Positions 12,565-51,772 of a DNA stretch of 64,000 nucleotides are shown here, one piece after another. The notes under the pieces are model-generated. The model worked only from the letters and a program-made list of their open reading frames with translations. It made no database searches and was not told the DNA's origin. Source of the stretch: Vermamoeba vermiformis (Eukaryota). The translations under genes were made by a program, and so were the position numbers. The stretch covers positions 124,001-188,000 of the forward strand of contig JBEWZL010000260.1 in NCBI GenBank assembly GCA_045837725.1, written 5' to 3'. Each line of letters starts with the position of its first letter. The first letter of the stretch is position 1.

Positions 12565-12771
12565 GCGTGGAGTCCCATTTTCGGGACACCCGTGCTGGAT
12601 TCAGCCAAAACGACGTTTGTTTAATTTGTGAATTTTTTTGTACAATTACAACTCGCAAGCACGAGACTATAACCACAATATAATTGTTGTAGAATATAAA
12701 GGAACATTAATTGCACGCAAACGTGTTTTAAATCCAGGCTGAAGTCCCAGAAAACCAAAAAATTAATAGAA

Positions 12772-14526
12772 ATGGAAAAAAATTCAAAAGAAGATAAGAA
12801 AGACAAGAAAAAAGACAAAGCTGATAAGGTAATTATAACAGAAGCGTCGGATTAATTGGAATTTATTTGAAAATATTATTTTTACTTGAGCTAATTTCTT
12901 TGATATTACTAGACACTCGTGGTACACTCAGACGCACATATTCAAAAGGCCTTAGTCGACAAAATACCGTTCAAGTTGAGTCCGTCGATAAAATCAGTTC
13001 GATGGCCTGTTCTGTACGACCAGCATCCAAACCCAGCTTTGCTTTTTAAAGCCTTAAAAGACAATTCTACAGTCACATCACTATCATTGAATAGAAATCT
13101 AATGTCTTGGAACAAAGCAGCAATGGATGCGTTCGAAAAGAGTTTGATCGCCAATACAAGCATTCACACGCTTGAATTCAGTTATTTTTCATTCGATCAA
13201 ACAAATGCAAAGTTTGTTAGGACATTAGCGAATATATTAACAAGCAATCATCGGATCCAGCACATAAGATTTTACAGCATTGACGATAGAATGAATTATA
13301 ACGTATTTGACCCGTTCTGTCAAAATATTCATTTATTTGGCTTAAAATCACTCGAAATCAAAGATTTATGTCACATGCACGTCATTGCCTTGTGTGGATC
13401 CGTTGCAAAAAGTCCAACAATTACCTCGTTAGCAGTTGATTTCACGCACCAATCACCGCAAGTATTCAGTAGTATGGTCGATGCAATAATAGAGAACCCA
13501 AATATTACAGATCTGACAGTCGGCAGTTCACAAGGCGAGATCGCGGGAGATCGATGGATCAAATTCAAATCAGCCTTAGAACGAGATACTTTAAGGCGAT
13601 TAATAATCCAAAACTTGAATTTAAAGGACAATGCAGCAGTGCAAGAAAATTTTGATAACGTTATTTCCGTGCTTCAAAGATCCAAAAATCTCGAAGAATT
13701 TGGAATCGTTTTTGGCGGGAATATCAAATGGAAGTTTATGGGCGATATATTATCTAATAATAAGAACATTAAGAAGCTGGTATTAGATAATTCTTACTTC
13801 CTTCCAGAAGACTTTGCGGATCTAAAACTGGATCAAAACGATACTTTGACAGAACTTTCGTTTAATAATTGTTACCTAGCTGGCAATTATCTATCGGAAA
13901 TATTATGCCATAATACAACGATAAAGAAGCTGAAATTTGGAACACGACATTTAACGCAGAACGAGATCAGTGGATTATTACGAGCATTGAAAAAGAATTG
14001 GACATTAACGGATTTGCAAGTCTTAGCGGACTTTTCAGAGACACCACTTGCTGATTTATTTGCAGAAGTATTATCGGTTAATAGAGGCCTGAGAAAATTA
14101 ACTTTCCACATCCAAAACTGCGAGTACGAACACGCTTGCCGAGTCATAGACGCATTGAAAATTAATACGACATTAAGAGAACTAAACTTTAAAAAAGATG
14201 GACTGATGTATATCGGAAGTCAAAATAAGCCACCAGGAGCACCAACCTTTGATCTGTTGTTAGCGGATCTGCTTTACGTCAACGAAAGTCTTACGTACAT
14301 TCAAGGCTCAGAACCATTCCCAGAAATTGAAGCAGCATTAACGCGAAACAAAGAAAATCAACGGCAATTAATAACAAACGGAAAGTTGTTCGTCAAGATG
14401 TTGGCCATGAGGCCTCGGACTTACGGTGGAATTCTTCCGCCTGAAGTATGGTGCTCGATATTGCGTCACGTGACTCTCCCTGGTGTAGACTGGGATGCGG
14501 AACACTTTTACCGCCAGAACTTGTAA
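12772..14526 (+). CDS. RNI-like leucine-rich repeat protein with C-terminal F-box-like motif
   Basis: Repeated ALKxNxTL/IxxL units; short Lys-rich first exon; LPPEVWCSILRHV near the C-terminus. Confidence 0.75.
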
Positions 14527-14564
14527 CGTTGTAAGAAAAGTCGAATTCGATTTCTGTACTGCAA

Positions 14565-16023
14565 ATGTTCTCAAAAAAAGCGCCGGCGCTTTTCCTCAAA
14601 GTTGAAAAAAAAAGTTTTGTTATACCCTAATTACACAACCACCCCTGCAACACAAGAGCGCAAGGCTTACAGCTTACCAAAGTAATTGATCTGTATTACG
14701 GATCTACTCGTACTAATTCAATATTCTTTAGCCAACCCTATCGGCAACTCAAATCTCAAAGCGAATCGATACCCATGGCGCAAGTTTGGAAACAAATGGC
14801 TAAGGTTGCTTTTTGGAAAGAAGTAAAAGGTCAAACTGTTCTCGACACTAATGGTGAATCGTAAGTTGCAGATTTAGTGCTCGTATTTTCAATTCTAAAA
14901 TCGTAATTTACGTAGGATCGAAGAAATATTTGCCCGTAACAAAATAGTTCCAAATTTTATGGAATTTAACGATTTTTTTACTTGGGCGATTAAGGTACGT
15001 CTAAAACATATCATCTGCAAATCTAATTTATTTAAAGTCCGAAAAGGAAAGGAGACCTCATTTCAATCCCATACCCGGTGTCGAATTTTTGGACACGATC
15101 ACAGAGGTATGGCTAATCTAAATTTACGCCGTTCGTCTCTAACAATTTTAGAAACTTAACGCGGTAGATAAGACTTCTGCAAATATAAACCAGGCATACG
15201 ACAACGAACAAGCGATACAAGATAAAATAATCAACAAACAGCGTGAAGTCTTAGCTTCGGAGTTTTTGAAACTGGTAATCAGTTAATTTTATTTCAAGTG
15301 GATGAAATTACGATCTAATACTTCATAGGATGAACGCATAATTGAATATATGTTCCCAAGATTTGCAGCATTTAAGGTACAAGACATCTTCATGCAGCTG
15401 CAAGATAAAAAAAGAGAGAAATGGGGCGAGAGAACTTACGACAATACACTGTACTGGGGCAATATTTCAACGCTATTTTAAGGATGACTTCAATCATTTG
15501 GCGTATGTTTTACAACCTTGATCAATATTGTCTTCTCGTCTAACTATTTCTTATTAGCGATCAAAAAGTCAATAAGTACTTGCCATATTGTGTAAAGAGT
15601 GATATCAAACCTGATTTGATGCTGATTTCACGCGCAAAAGATGTTCCGTTCGTAATTTGCGAGTACAGTGAGAGCAACTCTGCAAGCAACTGCAAAGATT
15701 TGATTAAACTCGTCGAAACAATGCAAATGGTGCTAACAAAGCGTATCAAATCCTTTCATGAATGCTCAAAAGCCATCTATGGCATACTCTGTGGCGGTGA
15801 CAAGCTGACACTATTGTGCATGCAGTATAATTACGAAGGATATTATGACTGCTTCTTCATCGCTGCCAACAAAAGAGAATTACAAACACTTCAGTTAGAC
15901 TTTGAAAATTTTGCCACCATTCTTAAGATGAACATAATTCTGAAGCTTAACGGACTTAACCAGTTTCAATTTGCTCCAAAGCCATCCAAATTATCAGATT
16001 GCAAAGATGTTTTGCTAGCATAG
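14565..16023 (+). CDS. Multi-exon protein with C-terminal PD-(D/E)xK-like nuclease domain (Crinkler REase-like); start uncertain
   Basis: Spliced WGERTY..YWAIF, IKPDLMLI, PFVICEYSES, IYGILCGG; needs 1-bp corrections near 14575 and 15457 (first downstream in-frame ATG about 14776). Confidence 0.55.
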
Positions 16024-16074
16024 CACTGCCAGAACTTGTAATATCTTGCTGTTTAATGAACACATCCAGAAGTT

Positions 16075-18910
16075 TTAGTTTTTTTCAGTGTGTGTCTTCT
16101 TAGGCTTGGCAGGGTTGATGTCTTTCTTGGCTTTTCGTTTCTTTGAGCCTTTTGCAGCAATTGGTATTGGTTTGTTTTCATCTGCCAACATGTCTGAATT
16201 TGCATTTGTATCTGTGATTTTAGAGAGGTACGACAGGAGGAACAACATGCTCAACCAATTGCTACCATTGGACTCAACAAAGTTTTGCTGATCAGTGACA
16301 TCTTGCTTTGTGCTTTCTCAGTAAGGAGGATTTTGAGGGTTTAGGATCCACCAACACAAAAATGTGTCCTTGATCCAAGAGTGGTGTCATGTGCCTTACA
16401 TCCTCACATTTGGCTTGCACACTTTTACATTGAATCAACAAGAAACGAATGAAGTCTGACTCTTGCTGGTGAAGTGCTTGGATTGGTGCCTGTCACACAA
16501 TTAGTGTTGCTACATAAGCTCTGAAATTGACTGGGTACTTTACCTCATTTTTTTCAACCTTGTTTGCAAGCGTTTGAAGTTTGTTCAGATCATCATTTTC
16601 CAGCATCAAGACAGGCACCAAAACATCAGCAAAGTTTAAATTAGCTTTGTTAATGATGATGGCTTGGGACTCTTTGAGACTAGGAAGTAGGGCTGCAAAT
16701 GTTCTGCTTTCAGCTTGCTTTGATTTTGTGACTTTGTCAATTACTTCACTTATTTGGCATTTTGCTTTGAAAACTCCTGTTAATCGAACCTGAATGCTCA
16801 CATTAGTTTATGTGCCAATATATTCATCCACAACTTACATAATGATTGCTGTACTTCCAATCTGCAACTAAACTTTGCATCTTAACATAGGTGTACTGAT
16901 TTTTGGCCTGAAGCTGGTATCGTGCCCAGAGTGATGTTGCACAAGCTACTTCAAGCCTAGAACCCTCTGTGCTTGTTTCTGAGCCATCACCTCCAACAAT
17001 ATCTGCTAGGATTGGAGAATAGGAGTCAAACAACTCAGAGGGCTTGTCTCCCTTCCATAATTCTGCTGAGATGTTCTAGTCATTGTTAGCAATCTAGCAC
17101 ACTAAGTCTACTTAACTCACCATTATTTCAGAGCCATAAAAGTGAAATGGCAGTGTGTAGCTACGACTTGCACATTGACCTTTAACTGGACCAAACTGAA
17201 TAGGCAGAATAATTCCCTTGCCCTCTAGCTCAGCATAAGTTGTTGCGCCTCTAATTCAGATTATTAAAATTAGAAGCTGCTGTAATTGGAATGGTACCTG
17301 ACTATGCCATTTTGAGGGTTGGTTAGGCAGAGGCTTAACTCCAACAAGACTTGCTTATCAAATTGACCAGCCAATCCTCTTTGAATAAAATAACTGGTGG
17401 CATTTCTGGTGAAAGTGTCAAATAATTGCTTCTGTTCTGCTGTAGTTATTGTCTCCCTGGCCAAGATGCCTTCAAATGATTGCAGAGCATCATGTAGAAT
17501 TTGTACTGCACGTGGAATTCCAAGACATCTCCTCCATAGAATATCAACTAGTCTTGAACCAGCAGCTGAGACATTCTTGCAAACTTTTTGATAGTATTCT
17601 TCTGATGACAGTGGATTCAGTGGCAGAATGACATCAGTCAGTATTCTAGTTGGGTCTTGAAGTTTACTCAAATCAGCTCCATAAAGTCCAACCTTTGCAC
17701 CGTGAGAATGAAACCACTAAGATAAGCCAACTTACCATCAGTACATGCACCTTAAACACTTTAGATTCCTGTGCAAATTCGTAGAACTGAATTAGTACGT
17801 GATACGCAACTGCTTTTTGCAAAGCTTCCTGAGCAAGAATTCCCTGGTAAAAAATGTTTAGTTAATATACCGATAGGGCTTCATTCAGGCAAACTTACTT
17901 GTGCTTCATCGATGTTGACCAATATAAGTGTTCCTGGAAGAGGCTGGCCAATTGGTGTGTAACCCTCTTTTTCAACGAGATGGATAAACAGTCGCATTAG
18001 GGAGAAGAATACGGTGTACTTTGGCTGCTCTGCTGCTTTTAGAAGTCCTGCACTTTCAAGCCACGTCTTGTCTTCATTACATTCAACATTCCACACATTT
18101 GGTATCATCATTTCTTTGGAACCAACAGTCCGTCCGTGAAATCGTCTGCAAATATTCCGGCTGACGATTGATCGGCAAATTAGGTCCGTTGCTTTAGCGA
18201 CGTCTTCCGCACTGTTTGGATCGCGTAACTGAAAATCAAGCTTGAGACCAGAGATCGAGAGGACAACAGACTGCTGCAATGTTCGATGAAGATTGACCAA
18301 GAACCTGATTCGCTTCGTCCTCTCAGACCTGTCTTGAAGCGTCTCAGAACCGCTTTCTATCTCGTTAAGTATCGTCTTCAGCTCTTTGGTGTTCTCTAAA
18401 GGCAACGACTTGTTCTCGATAAAGGCTTGCAGGACCTCAGCGTTGTGAAAGACGCGGATCGCCCACTCCAACAACAGACGTGTCTTTCCGTAGCCAGGAG
18501 CAGTTGTCAGGACGGCTGCTTTTGGCTTGGTACTTCCGATACGCGTAAAATTTGCGAAGCAGTCGTTCAGCAGAGACAGCAGCGCGAGTTGACGATTAAA
18601 GAACGGTGGTTGAGCCAAATTTCTCCAGGGCACTGGATCGTCGACGCCACTGGGTAGCGGGAAGGTGAATCTCTCGTCCTCGGGATGGGGAACGAGGTAG
18701 TCTGCGTTATAAGCCAGCAGCTCGTTGCAATGATTTATCACTTTTTTGATCCCGCGAGTTGAAAGCTTTTGCAGCTGGGTATAAATTTTGAATATTACTC
18801 TCTTTTCCTCTTTTGTAAATAGTTAGTATTAACATTATTGCGCGTAAGTCTCGAAGCAAGACTGAATATAGAAACTCACCACCATCTTCTAAAGCTTCTT
18901 GCTTCTCCAT
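16075..18910 (-). CDS. P-loop NTPase fused to C-terminal PD-(D/E)xK nuclease (Crinkler/RHS-type)
   Basis: FFNR, Walker A APGYGKT, Walker B LVNIDEAQ, GIPRA motif, then FADV...LLIQCK, basic tail KKRKAKK; 3' end needs one indel near 16295. Confidence 0.7.
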
Positions 18911-19419
18911 TCGAGACTCTATAATCGAGGAAATATTATCAATTAATTATTCTTAGCAATTAAACGCCTGCAGAGTTTTGTCTGATTTTTTAAAGCAAAA
19001 TCGAATTTGGATTTGAGCCAAAACTCCGTCAAAGAGTAATCTAATCCTTCTTGGCACAGATAAACAATTATATTAAAATTTAAAAATCAGGAGAAGTAAA
19101 ATAAGGAGCAATTTTCCATTTAGTAACGCGCATCTAAAATCTCCTTCAGCGACACGAGTCTGCAGAACTTACATTATTGATTTAGTTACTTTGTTGTCGT
19201 TTAACATTGACATAATCAACATTGTGGACTACAACTGGTCAAAACCAAAAAGTCTGCCATTTGCAGCTGAACTGGTTATCTTGCTAGAATAATTTTACAG
19301 TATCGCGTAGCAGGAAGATAAATACGGTTTTATTATGTACATTCCGGTTACTAGCATTGGATTACTATATTACATATTTAACAGGTTTAGTGATTATGTT
19401 CGTATGGGTTGATAAGCTA

Positions 19420-22400
19420 TTAGACGTTGATATCAAACTCGGGCAGTTCCGGGATCCCGCTCGACGACTCATCACTTGAACTGAATGAAGGCCTACTATT
19501 ATCAAAATTGGCAAAGTTCTTGCTGATATCGTTTTCTCTTCGTTCGAAGCTCGAGTTAGCGACAGAGTCGTTCTTCTTGTAATTCTTTCGTTTCTTCTTA
19601 TACGCCCTCTCGCTGTCTTTAGATCTCGACTTCAAGCTCGGATCCGTTCGAGGCCTCTTACTCGGCACTTTCTCTTTATCTTTCGACTCTCGTTCAGAAA
19701 ACCTCTTCTTGTCTCTCTCTTTCGCGCCACTACTTCGCAAAGGCGCCGTTCGATCGCTCAAGGCCGGCTCATTGTTGTTATTGTTCGTGCTCTCAACGAT
19801 TACTGTCGCGGGCTTCGGGCTCGGCATGCGATTCTTCTCGCCTGATTTATTCCGTCCTTCTTTGTCTTCACTTTTTCGCGCTGACGGCATCAGGCTCTCT
19901 TTGTCGCGTGAACTAGGTTGACTGCCATTGCCATTTGTTCCGACTCGTTTCAACTCTGGCAACTCAATCTCGTTCTTGTCCACACCAGCGTTGTGATTGT
20001 TATTTTCATCGGTGTTCAGCGTGTTTGAACTTGACACGGGCAACAACAATCCTCCGTTAGCGTTCTTCAATTGATTCAGTTCTTTGGTCAGTTCGCTGTT
20101 TTGGCCCTTCAAGACTTCATTCTGCTTCGTCAATTCTTTCACGCGGCCCATCAACTTTTCAATCTCCGATTTGATGTTAATAAACTCGTCGTCCATCGAT
20201 GACACCGTAGAATTGTAGTAGCCGCTGCGACCAGCGGAATATTGTGAGTACATGCTCGAATCATTCGTGCCACGCGACATGGCATCGCCGGGTTGGTGAC
20301 CCTTCTCGCTATTAATCGGTGATAATTTTCCGCTGCCGAAGCCAGTTCTGACGTAATGAAATTTGTTCACGAACAGCGTTATCACCGTGATGAGATTGCC
20401 AATAATAATTCCGAATGCGTGAATGGCAAACATTGCATGGGGCTCAACCGCGTCTGAAAACTCCAACGCGACGACAGCTAAATTATAAGTATATATTAGT
20501 ACATAAACGCGGGTATATGTGTTAGATTTACTATTCGAAGAAATCAAACACAGATTTACTTTCACAAGAATCGACCCAAAAAAAATTTGTGTAATAAAAT
20601 CAGTTTTTGTGCATCAAAAAGTACTTCTTAATTTATCGAGTATTCAATACTACCACTATATTAAAGTATGCGTATAATATGACTTACCAACACCACAAAA
20701 GGCGATGCAATAGATGATGAAGGCCAATAACTTGGACTCGTTGTAGACCTTGTTCGGAATAACTCGGATGCGCACCGTCAAATAAATTCCAACGGCAACT
20801 ACGGCACCATTGTACACCACAGATATAATCACAAAGATGGTGCGCACATTCGATGTCGAGCATTCCATTTGCCACGTGGAAGGTTTGTACGGGTTCTCTG
20901 GCTCCAACATCGGGTCATTGCCGAGAGCTGCAATTACAACCGCGATGGCGATTTCAATGGCGACCAGCACAGCAGTAATAATCGTCAGTCTCGCGTCGGT
21001 GATGTTGTTAATAGTCAACGACTTGTTGTTGTAAAGCGACCAGATCCGCCACACTTTTGCGAACAACGAGCCAAATGTCATGATGAAACCGATGCCCAAG
21101 AGCAATGGATTTAACGTGCACGTGGCCACTGAGACATTGCTCGGCGAATCAACAAAGATACTGCTGTACGAGATCAATGTGCCCACGAGAATGTAGCACA
21201 AGAACAACGAGCTCGAGTGCGAGATGACTGGATTGCGACGATAGGCCAAGACACAAATCAGCAGTGCTACTGATAGTGCCATAGAGACTAAGCGAAAATA
21301 ATATTATTAGGATTGCTATTAATAGAATGACCGTTGAAGAATCAATACCGCATAGTATCATTTAAAATAAACGCAGTCTATTTAGATTTAATAGATTGGC
21401 CATTAAAGAATCAAAAATTAATACGTGATCGGTTACTATTTTTAGGGTTTTTATCGAGAAAATTTGTTCGATAAATTTCCTCAATGAAACGATTGCCAAA
21501 AATTGGTATTATTTAATCAAGCTCACAAGTCTAATATTGGTGTGGCCGATAAACGTAATCTATTAATATAAAGTTCATATATAAATAGCACTTACGAATT
21601 GTCACAGCAAAAACGCCCCAATCGACGGCAGTATATTGAGGATTGAAAAATCTCTCGTGCCACTGTAGATGATTAATGTTAATTATGATTACGATAAATA
21701 TGATATTATAGCGCCGTGTATATCAATAAATTTTATAATACGAATTAATAAGGCGTCATACCTGCGGAATCGGATAAATCATATCGACTTGTTGGATCCG
21801 ACTTGGTGCGAGAACCATAAGCGTATTATTCGATGAGCTATTCGTCAACACATCGCTGGCAGTGATTGTAGGTTGATATTGCAAAAATGGCACGGGTCTA
21901 AGCTGCGTGTGGTCAGATCCGAATTGGTACGGGCCTAGATGATAGATCTCGCATTAGTAATGCTCGAGATGAGTTATAAATATTATTAGTGTGCTTATAT
22001 AATAATAAAATGTCTTAAGTGTCGCTTCGGATATTGATTAACGGATAGCCGGAAAGCATCCGTCTCGGAGGTTGCGTTAATTAATGCCACATCCACACAT
22101 TTAATATAACATACGGAACATAAATCGCACCGAATATAAAAATAAACAATATTAATTAATTCAAGCACATAGCCGCCTCAATTTAAAGATTTACATTTCG
22201 AGAACTTCTAAAATTGGCAATTTGCGCATCTCGATAGTGAGGCGCTTAAAATTAATGCCAAGATAAGCGGCTACGCATTATGCGATGCACTCGGGTAATA
22301 TGAATAAAATAACGTATTTTCTGGCAAAGCAAGTAAAGATCTAATTTGTTGAACGTACCGAAAAAAGTTTCGACTTGATTACGGCCCAATGCTTGCGCTA

Positions 22401-23430
22401 CTTCATCATCCTGCAATGTACCAGCAGTCTCTATAGCAACTGTTAATAAGAGACCTGCAACAGTCGCGTAGGCGTTCGTTGGCACTGCTTCTTTAAGGAA
22501 CAGAGTTCTGTATCTGGATTTGAATCTCGAGTAACTTCCAAAGTAGACGTCTTTGTAGTCTATGCCAGGACCAGCTACATCATGACCAGCGAGGTAAGCC
22601 ACTAAATTGGGATCTGCATCCCCGTACAAGTTATCGCCGATGAGATCGACCACAACCGCACTCGGCAAATAGTCCAAATCTTTCATTACTTGCAACATGT
22701 ATCGTACGTTGGCCGAGAAAGTGCACATCATCAGCACATCCGCTTCGAGCTTCTTAACTTGCAGGATTGTGTCATACAAATTTTGCTTTTGTTCATCCGT
22801 TGGTTCCACGTCGGCAGCTGTTATTGATAATGTCTTGACTATGTCCAAGCTGTAGTCTGGCGCATTTTGAGCGACACCAGCGCAAATTGAGCTGTGCAAC
22901 ACTGAATCCTCGGTTACTAATGTGATCGTCTGCGCTCCTTTAAGTCTCAACGTCGGAAGGGACTGCAAAGCAAATCGCGATGCTGAAGGGTATACTGAGA
23001 ACGCCTTATTCGAGTCCTGAAAGAACGAATCCGCTGCCACTAAAATACCGATCAATAGCCGATTTGCTGCTTCAGTGACATTCCTTGCTTCTAATGCCAA
23101 CTCGGTGGTGACTGGGGCCAATAAATAATCCACAGATCTATCATTGACTAACTGTTCATAATTCAGACGCACTTGGTCAACATTTCCGAAATCCTCCAAA
23201 ATTTTTAATTGGAACTGAATGGTTGCATTATTTAGCTGTAATTTATATTCGTCGTTTGCCCATTGTTGCCATACTAATAATCCATTCATTGTATCTTGGC
23301 TGAACTGTTGTTTCATAGGCGAGGAGCTCTGAAAAGACAGACTGATCCCTACTGTTACATTCAGGATGGAGCTCCCAGCCGAAATATTTACAAATAAATA
23401 TAATATTAGTGTTACAAATAGCACGGGCAT
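19420..23430 (-). CDS. Family-3 (GABA-B/Grl-like) GPCR with N-terminal periplasmic-binding-protein domain
   Basis: Signal peptide, ANF/LIV-like ectodomain (YLLAPVTT, VETFFG), 7TM motifs PVISHSSSLF, GSLFAKVWRI, YNESKLL, coiled-coil and charged tail. Confidence 0.9.
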
Positions 23431-24002
23431 ATTACGGGCTATTCGCATGCTTCTTAAAAGTTCGTTATCGCTTCTCTAGTTGTTGCATGTTTGTTGTTTC
23501 TTGGGCGACTAAATTTACAAAATTGAAAAACCAACTTATGACGGCTGCTAAATATAGCGCGACCAAAAGAATACCTTATATACGTTGCACTATGCTTGTT
23601 TGGACCTAACCTAGGTCATTACGCTAACAAAAAATGTTGTGTGGGAATTTGATCTAAATTTAGCATTTTTTCTGGCGCCGGTGATTAACCGCCGATCCAA
23701 CGGACATTGCATTGAGGGCACTAACTGTTCACTGCAAGAATACAGCAGAATCATGGCATCGGAAGCCTCCTGAAAAGTCGAATAACGATTCACAAAAGAT
23801 ATTCTTAGCTTGCGCCCTTCGGATGCCTAATAGCACTGAAATTACACCTTAATGCTTATTTTATCGATTTTGACTGATCTAAAAGATTTGGTATGGCACG
23901 GAATCCCAAATTAGCCCTCTTCCGCGAGAAACAGATTTTTGAGGCAAGATCTCAGGCCTTTGTCTCATTTAATCGTGCAAGGCTACAACAAACGGATTAA
24001 TT

Positions 24003-37352: not shown

Positions 37353-39070
37353 ATGGTACAATATCTTTAAAAAAAATCCAATTATTTATTTTGAATATTT
37401 AGGAGGCATTACCACGAGAAATAGTCGAGCTTATTGTGTCATCAATGGATGCGAAAACAAAAAAATATTTTCGGCAGACCTGCACCAGATTATTTGATAT
37501 TGTTGACCTTAGAAATTTTACGTTCTATTTCACGAGATCAGCAATGCTACCGGAGATCGTTCAGACATTATCACGATATTCCAAGCCGATCAGCCTCACT
37601 TTCACAAAGACCATCAATCTCAAACCTCAAGCTATTAATTACCTATCAACATTGACTAATATCACGAGCTTGGAGATCGCTGGAAGATACGACAAAGATG
37701 TTGAGAAGATGTCAAATCTGACCCAGCTGACGAATCTGCGCTTCTTGCAGTTTATGGAATACTTTCATTACGCAGCTATGTTGACGACACTAAAACAGCT
37801 AGATAGAGTAAATCTACGTCGCTTCTTATCGTTAGCTGAAACGAAAATGGTCTTGAAGGCAAACTCCAACTTGCGACATCTAGATCTGTGGACTCTTGAC
37901 AATTTCGAACACATTCAAAATATCGATCGTGTGACGCATATTTATATATCTAATTTCCGTGGCGATAATTACGAATCTATGAAAGCTCTAGAACAAGCTC
38001 GTCAGTTGCAACACTTGGATGTGTTCTCCAACCATCCCACTTATATGCCGCTTAGCGCGCTAACAGCACTCAAATCGCTCAAGTTAATAACTAAATCAAC
38101 TGAAGTAATCGAATCTGCTACTGGTTTGGCATGCTTGAATCTTGAACAGCTAACTATTGGCGGACAACTGGCAGCGGATGTGACCAAAACTTGGACAGCC
38201 TTGACAAGCTTAAAAGAATTAACACTACATCCTGAAGGCGAAAGTAATGAAGAATTATTACAGTTTCTAACAGCACTATCAAACCTATCATCCTTTGCAC
38301 TTAACAATGTTGACGAATTTTCGTCTTTCAATTGCTTGGACTTTTTGCCTGACACTTTGACATGTTTGGACATGGAAGTTACAGATGCTAGCAAGATCAA
38401 TAATATCGCTCGTTTGACGAGATTACAAATCTTAAGGATATTAGATTATCGGCCTGGTCCATGGGACTATTATTTTCTGACAGCATTGACACATCTGACT
38501 CAACTAACAATTGACTCAAATGAAGCACGTGACAGTTTGACATGCATCGGAGATTTAACGAGCTTGAAGAGTATCATAATATATTCGTATGACCAGGTGT
38601 TGAATTCTGGTTACTTCAATTTTTCAAAACTGGTCAATTTGGAAAAGTTGGATCTGCCTTCCGTTCTAATGACCGCTGATACTTTAACTACAGTATCATT
38701 GCTATCAAATCTGACGGATCTAGCAGCTGTTTACGACATTCATGATGTGCCTCGTGTTCTTGAAAAACTGCCATTGAAAAACTTAGAGTTGGTGCACGAA
38801 CAAAACGAAGAATTTTGGCAAAGTTTAGTTCAAATAACAACTCTCGAATCATTGAAGATACGTCATATCCATTCAGAAGACATAATATTGTCATTTTCGG
38901 GTCTTCAAAATTTGACACAACTTGAAGTCGTTACTAGTGCACCATTCAACTACACGTGTCTCATTCACCTCACGTCACTTCAATATCTCAAATTTCCTGC
39001 TCTTCGGGGTATTAGTAGTGAAGCCCTGATGGATCTAATGCCGTACTTGTATTACGCCAACTTGAATTGA
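37353..39070 (+). CDS. F-box/leucine-rich repeat protein
   Basis: ATG, intron, then EALPREIVELIVSSMD..FRQTCTRL (F-box) and many LTxLxxL repeats. Confidence 0.8.
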
Positions 39071-41235: not shown

Positions 41236-44085
41236 ATGGTCCTCTGGGTCAAGTTTTGCTTCCTATTCATTATAGGAAGTGTTGTAGCGTACCGCTCGAT
41301 TAATTTAGAAAACCAGTTCTCAGCCCGTTCAGCACAGGTACAGGGTGAAGTTTGGTCGAATATAGAAGATATAGTCGTAGAAGCGAGAGTACATGACTTC
41401 GACGCTTCGCCATTAGGTATGAAGCCCAACTTCCGACCAAATCTGATCATAGCAGATCTAAATTCGTACTAATTATTTGCTTTATTGTAGAGTACAAAGA
41501 TATAATTAGTATATTTGGATTTACGTTGAGAACCTATGGAAATCAATTCCTTCTCCAAGACGATTGGGACATTATTCCTTCCGGATTAGGCACTGGAGTA
41601 TTTTTGGACGTTTCAAACCGCCCTAAAGATGTATTGATTCGCTTAGGAAGAACTGGTAATACGTTTTTTGGAGAGATATGGAATACTGAAACGGCAGGAG
41701 CCTACGCAACAAAAACTTTACCGGTTCAACTCGCGCGAACCAACTTCACCGGTGCAGGAGCTTACATTGGGTTCGTTAATATCTCTGTTAAAATCGCTTG
41801 GATACGAGTCTATGCTGCCAGCATAAGAGGAGGATCGCAACCGCCATCACCGCTCCGATCCGCTGGTTTGCTAGCCGGATGGGACTTCGAAGACAACATT
41901 CTCGACAGTAGCCCTCAACATATCGATTTCGATGCTACCGGCAATACACAAGTATACAGTGATACACCGAGCTACAATCCCTTGGCAAAAATCGTGCGTG
42001 AAGGCTGCACCCTACTGGGCTGAAGTTTCCGTGCGTGTCGGCTCCACCGTCAAATTGGACGGCAGTTTCAGCTATCCCTTAGGCAATGATAAGCCCTTAT
42101 CCTACTCGTGGTCACTGACTAAGGGACCCTCGACAGTAACATTCTCGTCCCAATCTGATGTCTTAACGACATTCGTTCCGACGGCATTCGGAACTTACAT
42201 CATCAAACTGACCGTAACTGAAACTGACACGAGTGCCAGCAGTTCTGTTGAATTGTCAATTGGAGCAGTTAAAACAGATGATCGTGGCGTTGTTATTCCC
42301 GAAGATCCTAAAACATCGTTGCTATTCGGCCCGTTGATTATCTGGGGCGAATCTCCTTGGCCTTGGCTTGACGAGCGCAATTATGCCACTGTCGAGCAGT
42401 TCTTGTGGCATCTCGAAAATAATCCAAACTTCAATGGCGAAGACTTTATGACTAGTTTGCCAGGAACTATTTCCGTTACCAAAGGCTCTAAAATCATCAC
42501 TGGTGTTGGAACTGATTTTCAAAACACTTTCTGCGGCGGATCCACTACTCCCGTACATTCGTGGATCATCGTTTGGTACAAGTACAACGGAATAGCTGGT
42601 AGACGTCGCCAGTATATTCAATCATGCGACAGTGCTACACAAATTACCCTGAGTGATGATTACGTGGCATCGGAGAGTCAGTCCGACACTCAGTATTCGT
42701 ACTGGTTGTGCGACGGTTGTTGGCTCGGCGGAAGCACTAACATTAACTACTACGACAATGTTATCACGTTATACAGCTTTTACTACCGCAGTGGACAAGA
42801 TAAGTACTTGCAAAAAGCCAGAGATTTGGCGTACAAATGGGCCAAATCACCTGTGATCGATGGTGGCAATCTGTGGGCTGCAGTAGGTGGCGAAGGGGTC
42901 AAAACATGCAACCCGAGAGTAGCGGCAATGTTAGGAGTGACTTGGAGTGCGTATGAACAAAACGACGAATTTTTATGGAGCACGGTGAAAACTTACAACT
43001 CTGCGTTTGGTAATTACTTCGTGCTCTTCGATCTCCGTGAAAATGCTTACGAATTGGGCTATCTTGCAATCTCTGCTTTGTTGTCTCCCGACCAAGATTA
43101 CGCCAGCGAGTGCCTTTCAAAAGTTAACGCGTCAATCTACAACCGCTGGTTGCCACCGCGAAATTCCGAAGGAGTGTGGGAACTCTTGACTTACGGGTAC
43201 TGCACGTGGAATGGTTACTCAGGCACTGTTTCTGTCACCAAAGGTTCGACACAAGTGATCGGAACAGGTACGACCTGGCAACAGTCTTGGACTACAGGAG
43301 CGATGATGTGGATCGCAGACGTTTCCTCCGCAATTGGCGATCCAGTGGCCTATCCAAGCCCTGTATACGTTTCTCCGACTGAAATTACCCTGTCAAGACC
43401 TTATGAAGGAGAAACGGCGAGTGGTCGCGGCTGGCAGCTCAACAATATTGTTGGCACAGCTGTTTTTCCTTATCAAATTGGGCTTGCGGGCCAAATGTTT
43501 TATTTGGCGTATGAAGCGACGCAAGATGAGGTAGTTCGCGACTTGGTGCTGACCAGCGCTGATTGGGTCGTTCAAAAAGGAATTCAACAATCTACCAGGG
43601 CTTTGTACTACGCCCGAGGAGGTCCTGGATGCGAGCCTATATCAGACTCCAACCCATTTTGTGCGTTTGGTAACGACACGTACTCGATCTGGGCCGCAAG
43701 ATTTTTGAACGGAGAAGTTTTTGGGTTATTTTCTCGCACTATGGTTTTAGAACCGAATAACGAAGCTGTTCGCCTTGCAGGAGATTTTCTTATGGCTGCT
43801 GCTCTTGGAAAGATGGGCGGTCCTGGCACCGATGATTTTTGGGCCGAAGAATTGACTGAGTTTACAACGACGAATTCGACGAAGTTCAAGAACGTAGGGT
43901 TTTTCTTTGGAACTGGATTCTCGCCGTCATGGCCTGCAGCCCGATTGGCCCCAGCTGGTCCGGTCCCAGCTATTGGCAACACTCCTGGCACTAACAAGAC
44001 ACCGTCCACGACTGTATCCGCAGGGGGTCGAAATCGAGCGCTATCTTTTGTGATGGTTGCTATCATAATGAACTTTATCTTGTAG
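41236..44085 (+). CDS. Large secreted, probably GPI-anchored protein with PKD-like domain, two beta-rich repeats and a helical domain
   Basis: Signal peptide, one intron, VKLDGSFSY..LSYSW..GTYIIKLTVT (PKD), P/T-rich stalk and hydrophobic C-terminus; +1 frameshift near 42005. Confidence 0.75.
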
Positions 44086-49192: not shown

Positions 49193-51772
49193 ATGGCGAC
49201 CACAACCACAGTAGATGCAACGGCGAGACAAGTCGAGAATTTGTTTCCTGAGGTGGAGGCAAAATATCTTCGCGACCTCATTAGCGGTCTTATCCAACAA
49301 GGTGTAAAGGACTTGATCGGCGTAGTTTGTGATCAGCTCTCAGACGATAATTATCCTCGAAAGAAACTTGAAAAAGATGACGAAGTGCATGTTGTAGGCG
49401 TGGGAAGGCACGTAGAGCGACAACTAGACGAAGACACGCTTGATCTCACCTCAAATAATGGTGTCAAAAAAGGTAATATTTTAAGAATTATAAAATAATT
49501 TAGTATTTTCTATTTATGCACGATGTAGCTAATTGATAGAAATTGAATAAAAATGGAATCAATTCTTCGAATATTTCAATTCGAAACGCAATACCATCTT
49601 TTCTCGTGCAATCTAATACCATAAATTAGTAGATTATTTTACATAAAGGATTAACAATAAATAAACTTCTAACGAATATTTAAAAATTATTGGATTTGCA
49701 GTTCAAAATTTAGTTCAATTTTCTCATCACCCTTTATAGCCCTAGTGAAAGTGAGCAAGCAAAGCATCATCAAAACCATCTCTGAAGCATTCCCCGATGC
49801 CGACGAAGATTACTTAAGCGAGTGCTTCGAGCGCGTAAAATCTTCTTCGGTCGATCCGGTTGAAGCAATCTCCAATATTCTATTGGACGGCAAATATCCC
49901 TAAGAAAAAGAAAGAAGCGAAGACTCCCGAAAAAGGCGCATTCATTGATATCGAGGCTGGCGATCTGGCTGAGACCGACGATGTCAATTATTTTGAGCTG
50001 AAAACTGAGCCCAATGACGAATACAAAATCCAATGGTACGTTCAAATTTTTTATTTGATACTTATTTGCCCATATATTGAGCTCGTATATAGCAAAGTAT
50101 TGTTGGAGAATGCGTTCCCGCTGCTAACGGTCAAACAAATCGAAAAGCCCTGGCAAGACAATCATTACCGTTACGCGCCAACATGGAAGTACTTGAAGTC
50201 TCAGCTCATTAAAGACGATACAGGGCAGATCACCTCACTGACCATGAAGTTGCTAAAGAAGCCACGCAAGTCAAAGTGGCAACCTGCGCTCGTGCCCGAG
50301 TTGCAGCGTGAAAAGGCGTTCGTTCAGCGCCAAGAGCGTAAGTAGTTCTTTGTGGCTATTATTCAAATCTAATGTCCCCGTAGATAAGGAAATGGAAGAA
50401 AAAGACCGAAAGTTAGCGGAAGAGTTGAATGAGCAAGAGTATGAAGAGACAGGCCAAGGAATTGAATGCGGGTGTTGCTGCTGCGAGTACCCGTTCGACG
50501 AAATGGTTCAATGCCTCGATGGACATTTGTTCTGCAAGAATTGTCTCAAGAAATACGTCGAGGAGAGCGTCTTTGGTCAAGGTCAAATTGACGTGCATTG
50601 CATGGACGGCAGCGGTTGTAAATCTACGTTCCCGATGAGCCAGTTGAAGCGAAGCTTGCCCGAGCAAATGTTAACTAAGATTATGAAAAGAGTGCAAGAG
50701 TTGGAGGTGATGAAGGTACGTTTGCGTATCCGTATGAGTGCAAGACTTGATCTAATGAGTAACTAGGCTGGTATTGAAAATCTCCATCAATGTCCGTTCT
50801 GTGACTACAAAGCGGAGATTGCAAACGAGGACGATAAAGTATTCAAATGCGCTGTAAGTTGATTGCACTCGCGCTTGTTAACCAGTGACTGGGTACTAAT
50901 TGCTTCAGAATCAGAGCTGTGAAAAAGAAAGTTGTAGATTATGTAAAGAAGAAAGTCACATTCCACTTCGATGCGAAGAAGTCGAAAAGAAGAATGAGAC
51001 TGACTTCAGAAAGACTGTCGAAGAGCGCATGTCCGAAGCGTTGATTCGATCTTGCCCAAAGTGCAAGCAGAAGTTCTACAAAACCGAAGGTTGCAATAAG
51101 ATGACGTGCCAGTGCGGTGCTTGTAAGTACTTATTTATTGGAGTCGTTCGTAATAATCTAACAATATCACTAGATGTGTGTTACGTGTGTCGAGAATTGA
51201 TTGGTCACAAAGTTGGCTACGAGCACTTCTGCAAGTGCAATAGAAATCCGATGCCGATGGGCAAGTGCCCTAAGTGCAACAAGTGCTTCTTGTTCTTAAA
51301 GGATACTGTGCAAGAAGATCAGAAGTTGGTCGAAGAAATGAAACGAAAAGTCGAAGAAGAATATAAAAAAGAGCATCCTGAGTTGGCTGAAAAAGAGGTA
51401 CGAGTCATTATATCATGCTCTATTTACATTGCGCGTACTCAATTTGCTTTTTCAGATTCAAATTGGCCCCAAGGAAGAGAAGAAGAAAGGAGGCAAAAAG
51501 GCGAAGAAAGACGCTTTCCCTGCCGTTCCAATGCCAGCTTTCAACTTTGCAGCAATCAACCCGTTTGCTGGAATGCAACCTAGTAAGTACAGATTGTTTG
51601 GACGTTCGTTCGAGTACCAGATCTGAATATTTTTTTAGTGGTGCATGTCCAACGCGTGCTAGGTCTAGCACCAGCTGTGAATAGAAGAAGACCATATCAA
51701 GCTGTTCAAGGCGAGCCGGGTGAAGAAGAGCAACAACACTTGCGACGGAGCAAGAGGAGGCGTGGTTATTAA
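49193..51772 (+). CDS. RBR E3 ubiquitin ligase, RNF216/TRIAD3-like, with N-terminal CUE-like repeats
   Basis: ECGCCC..CLDGHLFCKNC, CPFC, SCRLCKEESHIPLRC, CPKC..KTEGCNKMTCQCG; +1 frameshift at 49898-49900. Confidence 0.9.

What the first reader, a model, noticed from the sequence alone, without database searches (positions are those of the whole stretch)
14565..18910. Tail-to-tail pair of Crinkler/RHS-like nuclease genes: solo REase and NTPase-REase
Seen: the minus-strand gene has Walker A APGYGKT, Walker B LVNIDEAQ, GIPRA and a C-terminal AD...LLIQCK with an NLS-like tail. The plus-strand gene has KPD...ICEYS. Their stops (16023 and 16075) are about 50 bp apart, and both genes have introns. 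Known: NTPase + PD-(D/E)xK nuclease architectures define eukaryotic Crinkler-RHS conflict effectors and parallel prokaryotic STAND-nuclease anti-phage proteins. Inference: an inserted two-gene conflict/defence or selfish module, flanked by an LRR protein that could act as a sensor.
Basis: partly seen in the sequence, partly recalled or inferred. Interest (0 to 1): 0.8.

Follow-up and report, generated by a model that had tools for sequence, protein, structure and literature searches.

The report
Intron-bearing NTPase–nuclease gene beside orphan gene
Two neighbouring genes of a microbial eukaryote are real, and one encodes a rare ATP-switch protein fused to a probable DNA-cutting domain, but nothing shows that they work as a pair, were inserted, or are true Crinkler effectors.

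Summary
The minus-strand gene (16075-18910) has 9 exons and encodes 792 aa. The plus-strand gene (14775-16023) has 6 exons. Their stops lie 51 nt apart, and every quoted motif is present.

The minus gene belongs to a rare family found only as unnamed fragments that end in read-through at a shared intron site: 23 hits among 1.84 billion representatives, with no Pfam or PDB match. Walker A, Walker B and a G-x-P-R-A motif are conserved and occur in STAND-like order. Distant relatives carry E…FADV…QxK at classical restriction-endonuclease spacing. In the window's own protein E and D are kept. It is undecided whether 'IQCK' is the true third motif or a coincidence on the next strand. The fold could not be tested, because spliced proteins cannot be handed to the folding tool.

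The plus gene has no detectable homologue. Its only nuclease support is a language-model lead (PDDEXK_12, 0.77), and its lysine is missing. The window has a frame break there that a public DNA run does not share.

Several findings argue against a recent insert: conserved intron positions, host-like composition, no flanking repeats, and mostly synonymous variants. There is no evidence for pairing or for an LRR sensor. The architecture resembles Crinkler/RHS NTPase-HTH-REase modules, but membership is unproven.

The parts
16075..18910 (-). NTPase-nuclease-like gene, 792 aa. Exons: 18910-18880, 18809-17899, 17843-17736, 17692-17298, 17250-17121, 17075-16839, 16789-16544, 16489-16400, 16305-16075. 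Introns of 70, 55, 43, 47, 45, 49, 54 and 94 nt, all GT-AG.
   Evidence: The model was built. Introns 2 and 3 are supported by gap-free alignment to homologue P0001. The start of exon 7 (V.L.GV) is shared with L001 and L005. A 13-nt length difference in DNA run X1 falls inside intron 8. An alternative acceptor at 16288 cannot be excluded.
18589..18609 (-). PPFFNRQ motif about 30 aa upstream of the P-loop
   Evidence: F and R are invariant in 23 of 23 sequences. Coordinates.
18481..18501 (-). Walker A, APGYGKT(R)
   Evidence: G-x-GK-x-R is invariant. Coordinates.
17899..17922 (-). Walker B, LVNIDEAQ, ending exactly at a phase-0 intron
   Evidence: The same junction (DE-x-Q/S followed by a GTN codon) occurs in 9 of 9 database fragments that reach it and in 3 of 4 metagenome loci.
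17504..17524 (-). G-x-P motif, LGIPRAV, in the helical part after the NTPase core
   Evidence: Identical in P0001. It reads GQPRAI in L001 and GNPRAV in L005.
16917..16961 (-). Helix with the conserved Glu (…LEVACATSLWARY), candidate first nuclease motif
   Evidence: Aligned with AFE..A..LYAR of L001 and L005.
16610..16636 (-). NFADVLVPV, candidate catalytic Asp strand
   Evidence: F-A-D-V…P is invariant in the window, L001 and L005.
16559..16582 (-). KLQTLANK, the spot collinear with QxK of the relatives under the exon-for-exon alignment. It reads Q-T-L and has no Lys.
16424..16444 (-). It is either the true QxK after a 30-aa insert or a coincidence on the next strand.
16096..16143 (-). Basic tail KKRKAKK…PAKPKK, which looks like a nuclear localisation signal
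   Evidence: Read from the sequence. Its function is inferred.
14775..16023 (+). Orphan gene, about 330 aa. Exons: 14775-14860, 14916-14994, 15038-15106, 15152-15274, 15329-15502 (frame break in the window between about 15405 and 15460), 15558-16023.
   Evidence: DNA run X1 has a one-base length difference at 15457 and keeps the frame. Its other one-base difference, at 15123, lies in intron 3.
15604..15675 (+). IKPDLMLIS … FVICEYSES, a PD…E-x-S motif pair with no Lys at the canonical place
   Evidence: Atlas lead to PDDEXK_12 at 0.77.
16024..16074 (.). 51-nt spacer between the two stop codons
12913..14526 (+). Neighbouring leucine-rich-repeat protein (large last exon). It is context only.
   Evidence: PDB sequence matches to LRRC34, DRC5 and tropomodulin-type LRRs, E 8e-6 to 0.08. 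An AGC-kinase-like gene lies upstream.
14510..14526 (+). First copy of a 17-nt direct repeat. The second copy is at 16025-16041, 2 nt after the plus-gene stop.
   Evidence: Not significant on its own: 13 of 40 shuffles give such a repeat somewhere.

Best explanation
The minus-strand gene encodes a resident, long-established eukaryotic protein. It is a STAND/AAA+-like P-loop NTPase with a short helical N-terminus and a G-x-P helical part. This is fused to a C-terminal PD-(D/E)xK-type (E…D…QxK) nuclease-like domain and ends in a basic, nuclear-localisation-like tail. The most likely mode of action is an intracellular, nuclear, nucleotide-switched DNA nuclease, or DNA binder if the site has decayed, of the genome-conflict or surveillance kind. 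NTP binding and hydrolysis in the N-terminal module would license or assemble the C-terminal domain on DNA.

The plus-strand gene is a separate, lineage-restricted gene whose last exon may be a divergent PD-(D/E)xK domain. Its tail-to-tail position is most simply ordinary gene packing in a compact genome.

Shown: the gene models, the motifs, their conservation, the rarity of the family, and the conserved intron sites. Inferred: the fold, nuclease activity, nuclear location and biological role.
For: Gene models. The P0001 alignment is gap-free across introns 2 and 3.

Run X1 shows 4 length differences inside the two genes:
- Three fall in predicted introns: 15123, and 16317 and 16331 together.
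- The one exonic difference (15457) removes the frame break.

Listed coding variants in X1 (10 further variants were not shown by the tool):
- Plus gene: 6 synonymous and 3 conservative.
- Minus gene: 2 synonymous and 0 non-synonymous.

Family: 23 hits at E<=1e-3 among 1,835,955,588 representatives, all 123-535 aa. Of the 20 looked up, 19 are unnamed and one is named 'hypothetical protein'.

NTPase motifs, read here as STAND-like by recall of Leipe et al. 2004:
- Invariant F..R…G.GK.R..EW.
- Motif order FxNR-helix, Walker A, hhhhDE, hhhh-G-T/L strand, h.hP.L..EY, G-x-P-R-A, seen in the window, P0001, L001 and L005.
- Weak generic P-loop Pfam hits only: ResIII in 4 of 23 members, AAA_25 in 2, AAA_19 in 2, and AAA_16, AAA_22 and nSTAND_NTPase5 in 1 each.

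Nuclease domain:
- L001 and L005 carry AFE helix, …NSEFADV(I/L)LP, then 12-14 aa, then G(I/F)Q(A/C)K, a helix and a hydrophobic strand.
- Structure-side Atlas rows for the L001 fragment include RE_HpaII, PDDEXK_7 and HpaI/SwaI-like. All are under the tool's bar and rest on a model of pLDDT 0.43.
- There is also a feature lead at 0.79 to a cluster in which 11% of members carry RHSP.

Resident status:
- The intron after Walker B is shared by 9 of 9 fragments and 3 of 4 loci.
- GC3 is 0.417 for the minus gene and 0.387-0.439 for the plus gene, against 0.388-0.540 in six neighbouring reading frames.
- No terminal repeats flank the locus.
- There are no relatives in viral contigs or prokaryote genomes.
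Against: - The fold is untested. The nuclease domain is split over four exons in different frames, so no tool-acceptable sequence covers it.
- No Pfam, PADLOC or PDB match reaches significance.
- In the window's own protein, the position collinear with QxK reads Q-T-L under the alignment favoured by exon structure, so the enzyme may be inactive.
- Gln instead of Glu/Asp in the third motif is atypical.
- Expression is unknown.
Confidence: 0.5

Rival explanations
1. The window's copy has lost nuclease chemistry. It is an NTPase with a decayed restriction-endonuclease-like domain that now serves only as a DNA-binding or scaffolding module, or it is on the way to becoming a pseudogene.
For: - The exon-for-exon alignment puts Q-T-L, with no Lys and a helix-like sequence, where relatives have hhhGxQxK.
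- D-to-intron distances are 28, 26 and 25 aa, and the next exons are 30, 40 and 32 aa, all phase 0.
- The window protein also has a 14-aa insert earlier in the exon.
- L006 shows a family member that appears to end before any nuclease part.
Against: - FLLIQCK matches the relatives' IGIQAK and VGFQCK strand closely, and it follows a segment that could be a helical insert.
- E and D are kept.
- Both listed coding variants in the gene are synonymous.
- The reading frame is open over 792 codons.
Confidence: 0.2
2. The two genes form a functional conflict module. The NTPase-nuclease acts as toxin or effector, and the small PD-(D/E)xK-like protein acts as partner, regulator or immunity factor, possibly with overlapping convergent transcripts.
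For: - The stops are 51 nt apart.
- Both proteins carry nuclease-type motifs.
- Both are rare or orphan.
- A 17-nt repeat brackets the plus gene.
Against: - The genome is compact. For example, the LRR stop and the plus-gene ATG are 249 nt apart, so close spacing is ordinary here.
- tblastn with the plus-gene model found 0 matches in 6 of 6 relatives' loci. Only 2 independent lineages have 355-900 nt of 3' flank, and both are distant, so this is weak evidence.
- There is no sequence similarity between the two nuclease-like parts.
- The repeat is not significant (13 of 40 shuffles).
Confidence: 0.12
3. It is a bona fide Crinkler/RHS-type secreted or translocated effector used against another organism.
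For: - The order NTPase - HTH-like part - REase-like part equals the commonest Crinkler C-terminal layout (PMC5289972, section 11).
- Alternative alpha-helical headers exist in that class (same source), and the first 45 aa are predicted helical in P0001 (low confidence).
- There is an Atlas lead at 0.79 to a cluster with 11% RHSP.
Against: - No Crinkler- or RHSP-named Pfam hit.
- No LxLFLAK- or HVLVxxP-type motif is visible in the N-terminus. These motif names are taken and from the HVLVEPP passage.
- The N-terminus is hydrophilic, with no signal-like stretch.
- There is a single copy in 64 kb.
Confidence: 0.06
4. One or both genes are cargo of a mobile element, such as a transposon-derived NTPase plus nuclease, that inserted between the LRR gene and the bZIP-like gene.
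For: - NTPase + REase pairs are linked to prokaryotic transposons (PMC5289972).
- A 17-nt direct repeat lies at the LRR stop and just past the plus-gene stop.
- A truncated relative, P0005, with an identical 159-aa product occurs on 5 contigs of one JGI assembly.
Against: - Eight and five spliceosomal introns, with positions conserved in distant relatives.
- No terminal inverted or long direct repeats.
- Host-like composition.
- No second copy in the window.
- No transposase, integrase or reverse transcriptase nearby.
- No empty-site joint in run X1 (table 5).
Confidence: 0.07

Closest known systems
Crinkler/RHS-type (CR) effector C-termini with NTPase + HTH + REase (Zhang et al. 2016, seen only through the review PMC5289972, section 11, and passages of PMC6131194)
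   Same: The domain order is the same: P-loop NTPase, helical or HTH-like part, then a restriction-endonuclease-type domain. Both are eukaryotic, both point to nuclear or DNA targeting, and both are reported in free-living eukaryotes.
   Different: No ubiquitin-like header with LxLFLAK/HVLVxxP, and no signal-like N-terminus. No detectable sequence match to Crinkler or RHSP Pfam models. Single copy in the window. Many conserved introns. Membership in the published CR-NTPase or CR-REase families could not be tested, because neither the paper nor its alignments are held.
STAND NTPases: NB-ARC, NACHT and AAA_16-type, including prokaryotic Avs/AVAST STAND-nuclease defence proteins (recalled, not from a call)
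   Same: The motif order is shared: helix with conserved Arg before the P-loop, Walker A, hhhhDE, a strand ending in polar residues, L.PL..E, and G-x-P. An NTPase is coupled to a nuclease effector.
   Different: No repeat-type sensor domain (TPR, LRR or WD40). The nuclease is C-terminal, not N-terminal. About 190 aa lie between Walker A and Walker B. Profile matches are only at noise level: nSTAND_NTPase5 at E 0.1 and NLRP14 at E about 1.
Tn7 TnsA-type endonuclease with TnsC-type ATPase (recalled: TnsA uses E, D and Q-x-K)
   Same: An E…D…Q-x-K triad with Gln in place of the usual acidic residue, associated with an ASCE ATPase.
   Different: Here both are in one polypeptide. No transposase partner or element ends are present, and there is no sequence match to any PDB chain.
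Pfam PDDEXK_12 (PF20516) and unnamed Mucoromycota clusters (for the plus-strand gene)
   Same: These are the nearest language-model neighbours. Three unnamed eukaryotic clusters score 0.91-0.93 and share 185-190 of 256 features. The nearest named cluster is PDDEXK_12 at 0.77. The tool states that 9 of the ten best named hits share a family or clan.
   Different: No HMMER-level match. The motif reads PD…E-x-S, without the lysine. The single-sequence fold failed at pLDDT 36.3.

Membership tests
Crinkler/RHS (CR) proteins | N-terminal header domain (ubiquitin-like fold with LxLFLAK, ending in HVLVxxP, or another recognised header) | tested here: not met
   No such motifs are in the 792-aa model. 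No Crinkler-named Pfam family appears at E up to 1 for exon 2 or for 22 homologues. A short helical N-terminus of unknown kind remains, so an unrecognised header is not excluded.
Crinkler/RHS (CR) proteins | C-terminal module in the order NTPase - HTH - REase | tested here: inconclusive
   The order of motifs fits. The folds of the HTH and REase parts are not shown.
Crinkler/RHS (CR) proteins | Profile-level membership in a published CR-NTPase or CR-REase family, or in Pfam RHSP | not testable with these tools
   Zhang et al. 2016 is not held, and supplements are closed. hmmscan gave no RHSP hit. The only signal is an Atlas lead at 0.79 to a cluster with 11% RHSP.
Crinkler/RHS (CR) proteins | Multi-copy, diversifying gene family within a genome | tested here: inconclusive
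   There is one copy in the 64-kb window, and no whole genome is held. The truncated relative P0005 lies on 5 contigs of one assembly.
P-loop NTPase, STAND/AAA+-like | Walker A GxxGKT and Walker B hhhhDE | tested here: met
   Both are present. GK.R is invariant in 23 of 23 sequences. DE is present in all 10 sequences that reach it.
P-loop NTPase, STAND/AAA+-like | G-x-P motif in the helical domain after the core, then a winged helix | tested here: inconclusive
   G(I/Q/N)PRA(V/I) is conserved in 4 of 4 sequences that cover it. No profile or structural match confirms the class.
PD-(D/E)xK (restriction endonuclease-like) superfamily, minus gene | Catalytic motifs E / D / (D,E,Q)xK on the helix, second strand and third strand | tested here: inconclusive
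   The relatives L001 and L005 have all three at classical spacing. The window keeps E and D, and its third motif is ambiguous, Q-T-L or IQCK.
PD-(D/E)xK (restriction endonuclease-like) superfamily, minus gene | Alpha-beta-beta-beta-alpha-beta core fold | not testable with these tools
   The domain spans exons 6-9 in different frames.
PD-(D/E)xK superfamily, plus gene | PD…(D/E)xK motifs and fold | tested here: inconclusive
   PD and E are present, but the lysine is replaced by Ser. The Atlas lead to PDDEXK_12 scores 0.77. AlphaFold2 gave pLDDT 36.3. There is no Pfam or PDB match.
Two-gene conflict or defence module | Conserved co-occurrence of the two families | tested here: inconclusive
   No plus-like sequence was found in any of the 6 relatives' loci. 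These represent 2 independent lineages with 355-900 nt of 3' flank, and both are distant.

The most novel reading that the evidence does not exclude
The minus gene founds a header-less, nucleus-directed branch of eukaryotic STAND-like NTPase-nuclease proteins. It would act as a cell-autonomous sensor-effector against invading DNA, a eukaryotic counterpart of bacterial STAND-nuclease defence. The adjacent orphan PD-(D/E)xK-like gene would be its dedicated partner or antidote, having arrived by an old insertion marked by the 17-nt repeat.
Probability: 0.1. Interest if true: 0.75.

Novelty: new member of a known kind. Interest (0 to 1): 0.38.

Why it matters
NTPase-coupled restriction-endonuclease domains recur in conflict systems such as Crinkler/RHS effectors, transposon proteins and bacterial STAND defence. 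This family adds a rare version that no Pfam model covers. It has a conserved exon structure, an apparent nuclear signal and no secretion header, which points to an intracellular role in a free-living-looking microbial eukaryote. If nuclease activity and NTP control were shown, it would give a small, tractable model for how such switches work inside eukaryotic nuclei. As it stands, it is an annotation-level advance. The pairing, the insertion and the LRR-sensor ideas that made the finding look exciting have no support.

Tried and rejected
- **RNA evidence.** No RNA holder was listed for the stretch. Three RNA runs with the same species label gave 0, 4 and 7 reads. All lay at 19328-19390, at 95-99% identity, and ran on into unlike sequence. 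There were none on either gene or on the LRR neighbour. This is no test of expression or splicing.
- **Whole genome.** None is held, so copy number and synteny are untested.
- **Homologue searches for the plus gene.** None in the 'longer' or 'near' length classes, in viral contigs or in prokaryote genomes.
- **NTPase relatives elsewhere.** None in viral contigs or prokaryote genomes.
- **Pfam, PADLOC and PDB.** These gave only sub-threshold generic P-loop hits or nothing.
- **AlphaFold2 of the plus-gene last exon.** pLDDT was 36.3, so the model is unusable and was not searched.
- **AlphaFold2 of P0001.** It was run with a 23-row alignment. The N-terminal 330 aa are moderate and the rest poor. 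Foldseek PDB gave nothing at E<=0.001. VIA wide gave only helical matches to the low-confidence half. The NTPase class is therefore unresolved by structure.
- **MAFFT alignments.** Alignments that added exon fragments or locus ORFs misplaced them, and were dropped (A2, A3, A5).
- **A 40-nt intron (15377-15416) to bridge the plus-gene frame change.** Considered and set aside. It lacks the CTAA-type branch motif of the other 13 introns, and run X1 gives a simpler answer.
- **Short repeats around the locus.** They are not significant by shuffling: direct repeat 13 of 40, inverted repeat 3 of 40.
- **Earlier findings of this scan.** Nothing by place, sequence or words.
- **Literature.** Zhang et al. 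2016 is not held. A search for PDDEXK_12 / PF20516 found 0 papers.
- **Searching relatives' records with RHSP.** The records are not held.
- **Complex prediction.** Not used, because only exon fragments could be sent and the report does not claim binding.

Full report
**What is there**

The window is eukaryotic. GC is about 0.40, and genes are densely packed with short GT-AG introns.

On the minus strand, a nine-exon model runs from ATG 18910 to TAA 16077-16075 and gives 792 aa.
- APGYGKT at 18481-18501.
- LVNIDEAQ at 17899-17922.
- LGIPRAV at 17504-17524.
- NFADVLVPV at 16610-16636.
- FLLIQCK at 16424-16444.
- A basic tail, KKRKAKK…PAKPKK, at 16096-16143.

On the plus strand, a six-exon gene runs from ATG 14775 to TAG 16021-16023. 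It carries IKPDLMLIS at 15604-15630 and FVICEYSES at 15649-15675. The stop codons are 51 nt apart.

There are three corrections:
- The plus gene more likely starts at 14775 than at 14565.
- The window sequence changes frame inside plus-gene exon 5.
- The 'AD…LLIQCK' pairing is questionable, as discussed below.

**Support for the gene models**

Homologue P0001 aligns without gaps across the junctions of introns 2 and 3. Exon 7 starts with V.L.GV, as do the matching reading frames of two distant relatives.

Contigs of DNA run X1, laid on the locus, differ from the window in length at four places inside the two genes:
- 15123 falls in plus-gene intron 3.
- 16317 and 16331 together (13 nt) fall in minus-gene intron 8.
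- 15457 is exonic and is exactly where the plus-gene frame breaks. With it the exon stays open.

The break is therefore an assembly error or a strain difference, not a feature of the gene.

The coding variants listed for X1 are mostly silent (ten further variants were not shown by the tool). The plus gene has 6 synonymous and 3 conservative changes. The minus gene has 2 synonymous and none non-synonymous. Both genes therefore look constrained. Expression itself could not be tested, because the three RNA runs put no reads on either gene or on the LRR neighbour.

**How rare the family is**

An exhaustive phmmer search with exon 2 (303 aa) against 1.84 billion representatives found 23 proteins at E<=1e-3.
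- All are 123-535 aa.
- Of the 20 looked up, none has an informative name.
- All nine that reach Walker B continue with a GTN codon, and eight of them stop within 30 residues. They are exon-sized reading frames of unannotated eukaryotic contigs with an intron at the same phase-0 site as in the window.

Six metagenome loci hold more distant members. L002 and L003 are 96.5% identical to L001. Three of four lineages show the same junction. There are no relatives in viral contigs or in prokaryote genomes, and no second copy in the window. P0005 is a truncated derivative that diverges right after the P-loop. It lies on five contigs of one JGI assembly.

**The NTPase**

F and R of the FxNR motif and G.GK.R..EW are invariant in 23 of 23 sequences. 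The order of motifs is:
1. A helix with the conserved Arg.
2. Walker A.
3. About 190 aa, largely helical.
4. hhhhDE.
5. A hydrophobic strand ending in G-T/L.
6. h.hP.L..EY.
7. G-x-P-R-A.

This order is seen in the window, P0001, L001 and L005. By my recollection of the STAND and ORC/AAA_16-type literature, this is the STAND-like pattern. No profile confirms it.
- Pfam gives only sub-threshold generic P-loop hits: ResIII in 4 of 23 members, and AAA_25, AAA_19, AAA_16, AAA_22 and nSTAND_NTPase5 in 1-2 each.
- PADLOC gives only weak helicase hits in single members.
- The best PDB profile hit is NLRP14 at E about 1.
- The AlphaFold2 model of P0001 (pLDDT 68.1, poor after residue 330) found no meaningful structural neighbour.

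**The nuclease-like domain**

The strongest evidence comes from the distant relatives. L001 and L005 read as follows when spliced:
- A helix, G.AFE..(V/I)A..LYAR.
- Then V.L.GV.
- Then …(V/I)D(I/V)GNSEFADV(I/L)LP.
- Then 12-14 residues.
- Then G(I/F)Q(A/C)K.
- Then a helix and a hydrophobic strand.

This is the E / D / (D,E,Q)xK arrangement of restriction-endonuclease-like enzymes at classical spacing. As I recall, Gln in the third motif also occurs in Tn7 TnsA. Atlas neighbours of the L001 fragment include RE_HpaII, PDDEXK_7 and HpaI/SwaI-like rows, and a cluster with 11% RHSP at 0.79. All are below the tool's bar and are leads only.

The window protein keeps the Glu helix (16917-16961) and FADV. 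For the third motif two alignments compete.

*Exon-for-exon alignment.* This is MAFFT's choice.
- The distance from D to the intron is 28, 26 and 25 aa.
- The next exon is 30, 40 and 32 aa, with all phases 0.
- Under this alignment Q-T-L (16559-16582) lies at the QxK spot, and IQCK falls on the following strand.

Sequence scores cannot decide between them. I put roughly 55:45 in favour of the exon-for-exon alignment. Whether this particular copy is catalytically intact is therefore open.

The domain is spread over four exons in different frames, and spliced sequences are not accepted by the folding tool.

**The plus-strand gene**

Its last exon (154 aa) has no homologue in the word-indexed searches, no Pfam or PDB match, and a failed single-sequence fold (pLDDT 36.3).

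The protein Atlas recognises it as family-like:
- Recognition is 3342.
- The three nearest clusters score 0.91-0.93 and share 185-190 of 256 features.
- All 30 nearest clusters lack a common Pfam family. The three listed ones are eukaryotic, commonest phylum Mucoromycota.
- The nearest named cluster is PDDEXK_12 at 0.77. The tool states that 9 of the 10 best named hits share a family or clan.

The motif reads PD…E-x-S, so the canonical lysine is missing. A PD-(D/E)xK fold is plausible but unproven.

**Module, insertion and sensor**

Nothing supports these parts of the interpretation.
- Intron positions are conserved across members only 25-50% identical, which marks an old resident family.
- GC3 of both genes (0.387-0.439) lies within the range of six neighbouring reading frames (0.388-0.540).
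- No terminal repeats flank the locus.
- Neighbours on both sides are ordinary genes: AGC-kinase-like, an LRR protein of the LRRC34/DRC5/tropomodulin kind, a bZIP-like protein, and a class-C-type receptor with a periplasmic-binding domain.
- tblastn with the plus-gene model found nothing in any of the six relatives' loci. Only two independent and distant lineages have a 3' flank, so this is weak evidence.
- The two nuclease-like parts are not similar to each other.

One oddity remains. A 17-nt repeat (16 of 17) covers the last codons and stop of the LRR gene, and recurs 2 nt after the plus-gene stop. The exact 14-mer occurs nowhere else in 64 kb. However, 13 of 40 shuffles produce a repeat of that quality somewhere in the region. 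I record it as a possible footprint of an old insertion of the plus gene, not as evidence.

**Comparison with what is known**

The layout matches the 'NTPase + HTH + REase' C-termini that make up over a quarter of Crinkler/RHS proteins, including proteins from free-living eukaryotes (review PMC5289972, section 11 read in full; passages of PMC6131194). The primary paper, Zhang et al. 2016, and its family alignments are not held, and supplements are closed. Membership in a published CR-NTPase or CR-REase family is therefore untested and remains possible.

The defining header domain was not found. I therefore file the minus gene as working like a CR-type or STAND-type NTPase-nuclease, not as a shown Crinkler. 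It is best called a new, rare member of a known architectural kind.

**Verdict**

Both genes are real, and the minus gene is moderately interesting. The pairing, insertion and LRR-sensor claims are unsupported. The key fold test is still outstanding.

Noticed in passing
window 14510-14526 and 16025-16041: A 17-nt direct repeat (16 of 17 identical) sits at the very end of the LRR gene's coding sequence and again 2 nt after the plus-gene stop, 1515 nt apart. The exact 14-mer is found only at these two places in the window. It may be the footprint of an old insertion or duplication, but 13 of 40 shuffles of the 11-kb region give some repeat of this quality.
   Followed up: partly
window 14057-14075 and 15167-15185: A 19-nt inverted repeat (95% complementary) links the LRR gene and exon 4 of the plus gene. 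Only 3 of 40 shuffles give such a pair. Its meaning is unknown.
   Followed up: partly
protein P0005 (no locus available): This 159-aa JGI 'hypothetical protein' is 77% identical to the window protein up to the P-loop, then unrelated, and it has lost the invariant Arg of FxNR. The identical product lies on 5 contigs of one assembly (longest 437,757 nt). It is a truncated multi-copy derivative in a related genome.
   Followed up: partly
window 12600-19400 (DNA run X1): Many variants sit at about half depth. This suggests two haplotypes or strains roughly 1-2% apart across the LRR gene and the plus gene. No empty-site or rearranged joint was seen.
   Followed up: partly
window 17899-18809 versus 16075-17843: The large intron-free exon 2 of the minus gene has GC 0.474. 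The seven small downstream exons have GC 0.406 and the introns 0.372.
   Followed up: no
window 14430-14480: The LRR protein ends with an 'LPPEVWCSILRHV' stretch that looks like an F-box-type motif at the C-terminus. This is my recollection of the motif, and no Pfam hit supports it.
   Followed up: no
L006 728-1900: This family member seems to stop after the NTPase core and is followed by a BTB/Kelch-type gene on the other strand. It may be an NTPase-only paralogue or a truncated copy.
   Followed up: no
window 19328-19390: The only RNA reads that landed on the stretch (4 and 7 reads, at 95-99% identity) cover this short piece and run on into unlike sequence on both sides. It is probably a repeat or a conserved element shared with another locus or strain.
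   Followed up: no
window 20656-23475, 37403-39070, 41875-44085, 50257-51583: Other genes in the window are a class-C-type receptor with a periplasmic-binding domain, an F-box/LRR protein, a PKD-domain protein and an IBR/RING-type protein. Several proteins have Asn/Gln-rich runs.
   Followed up: partly
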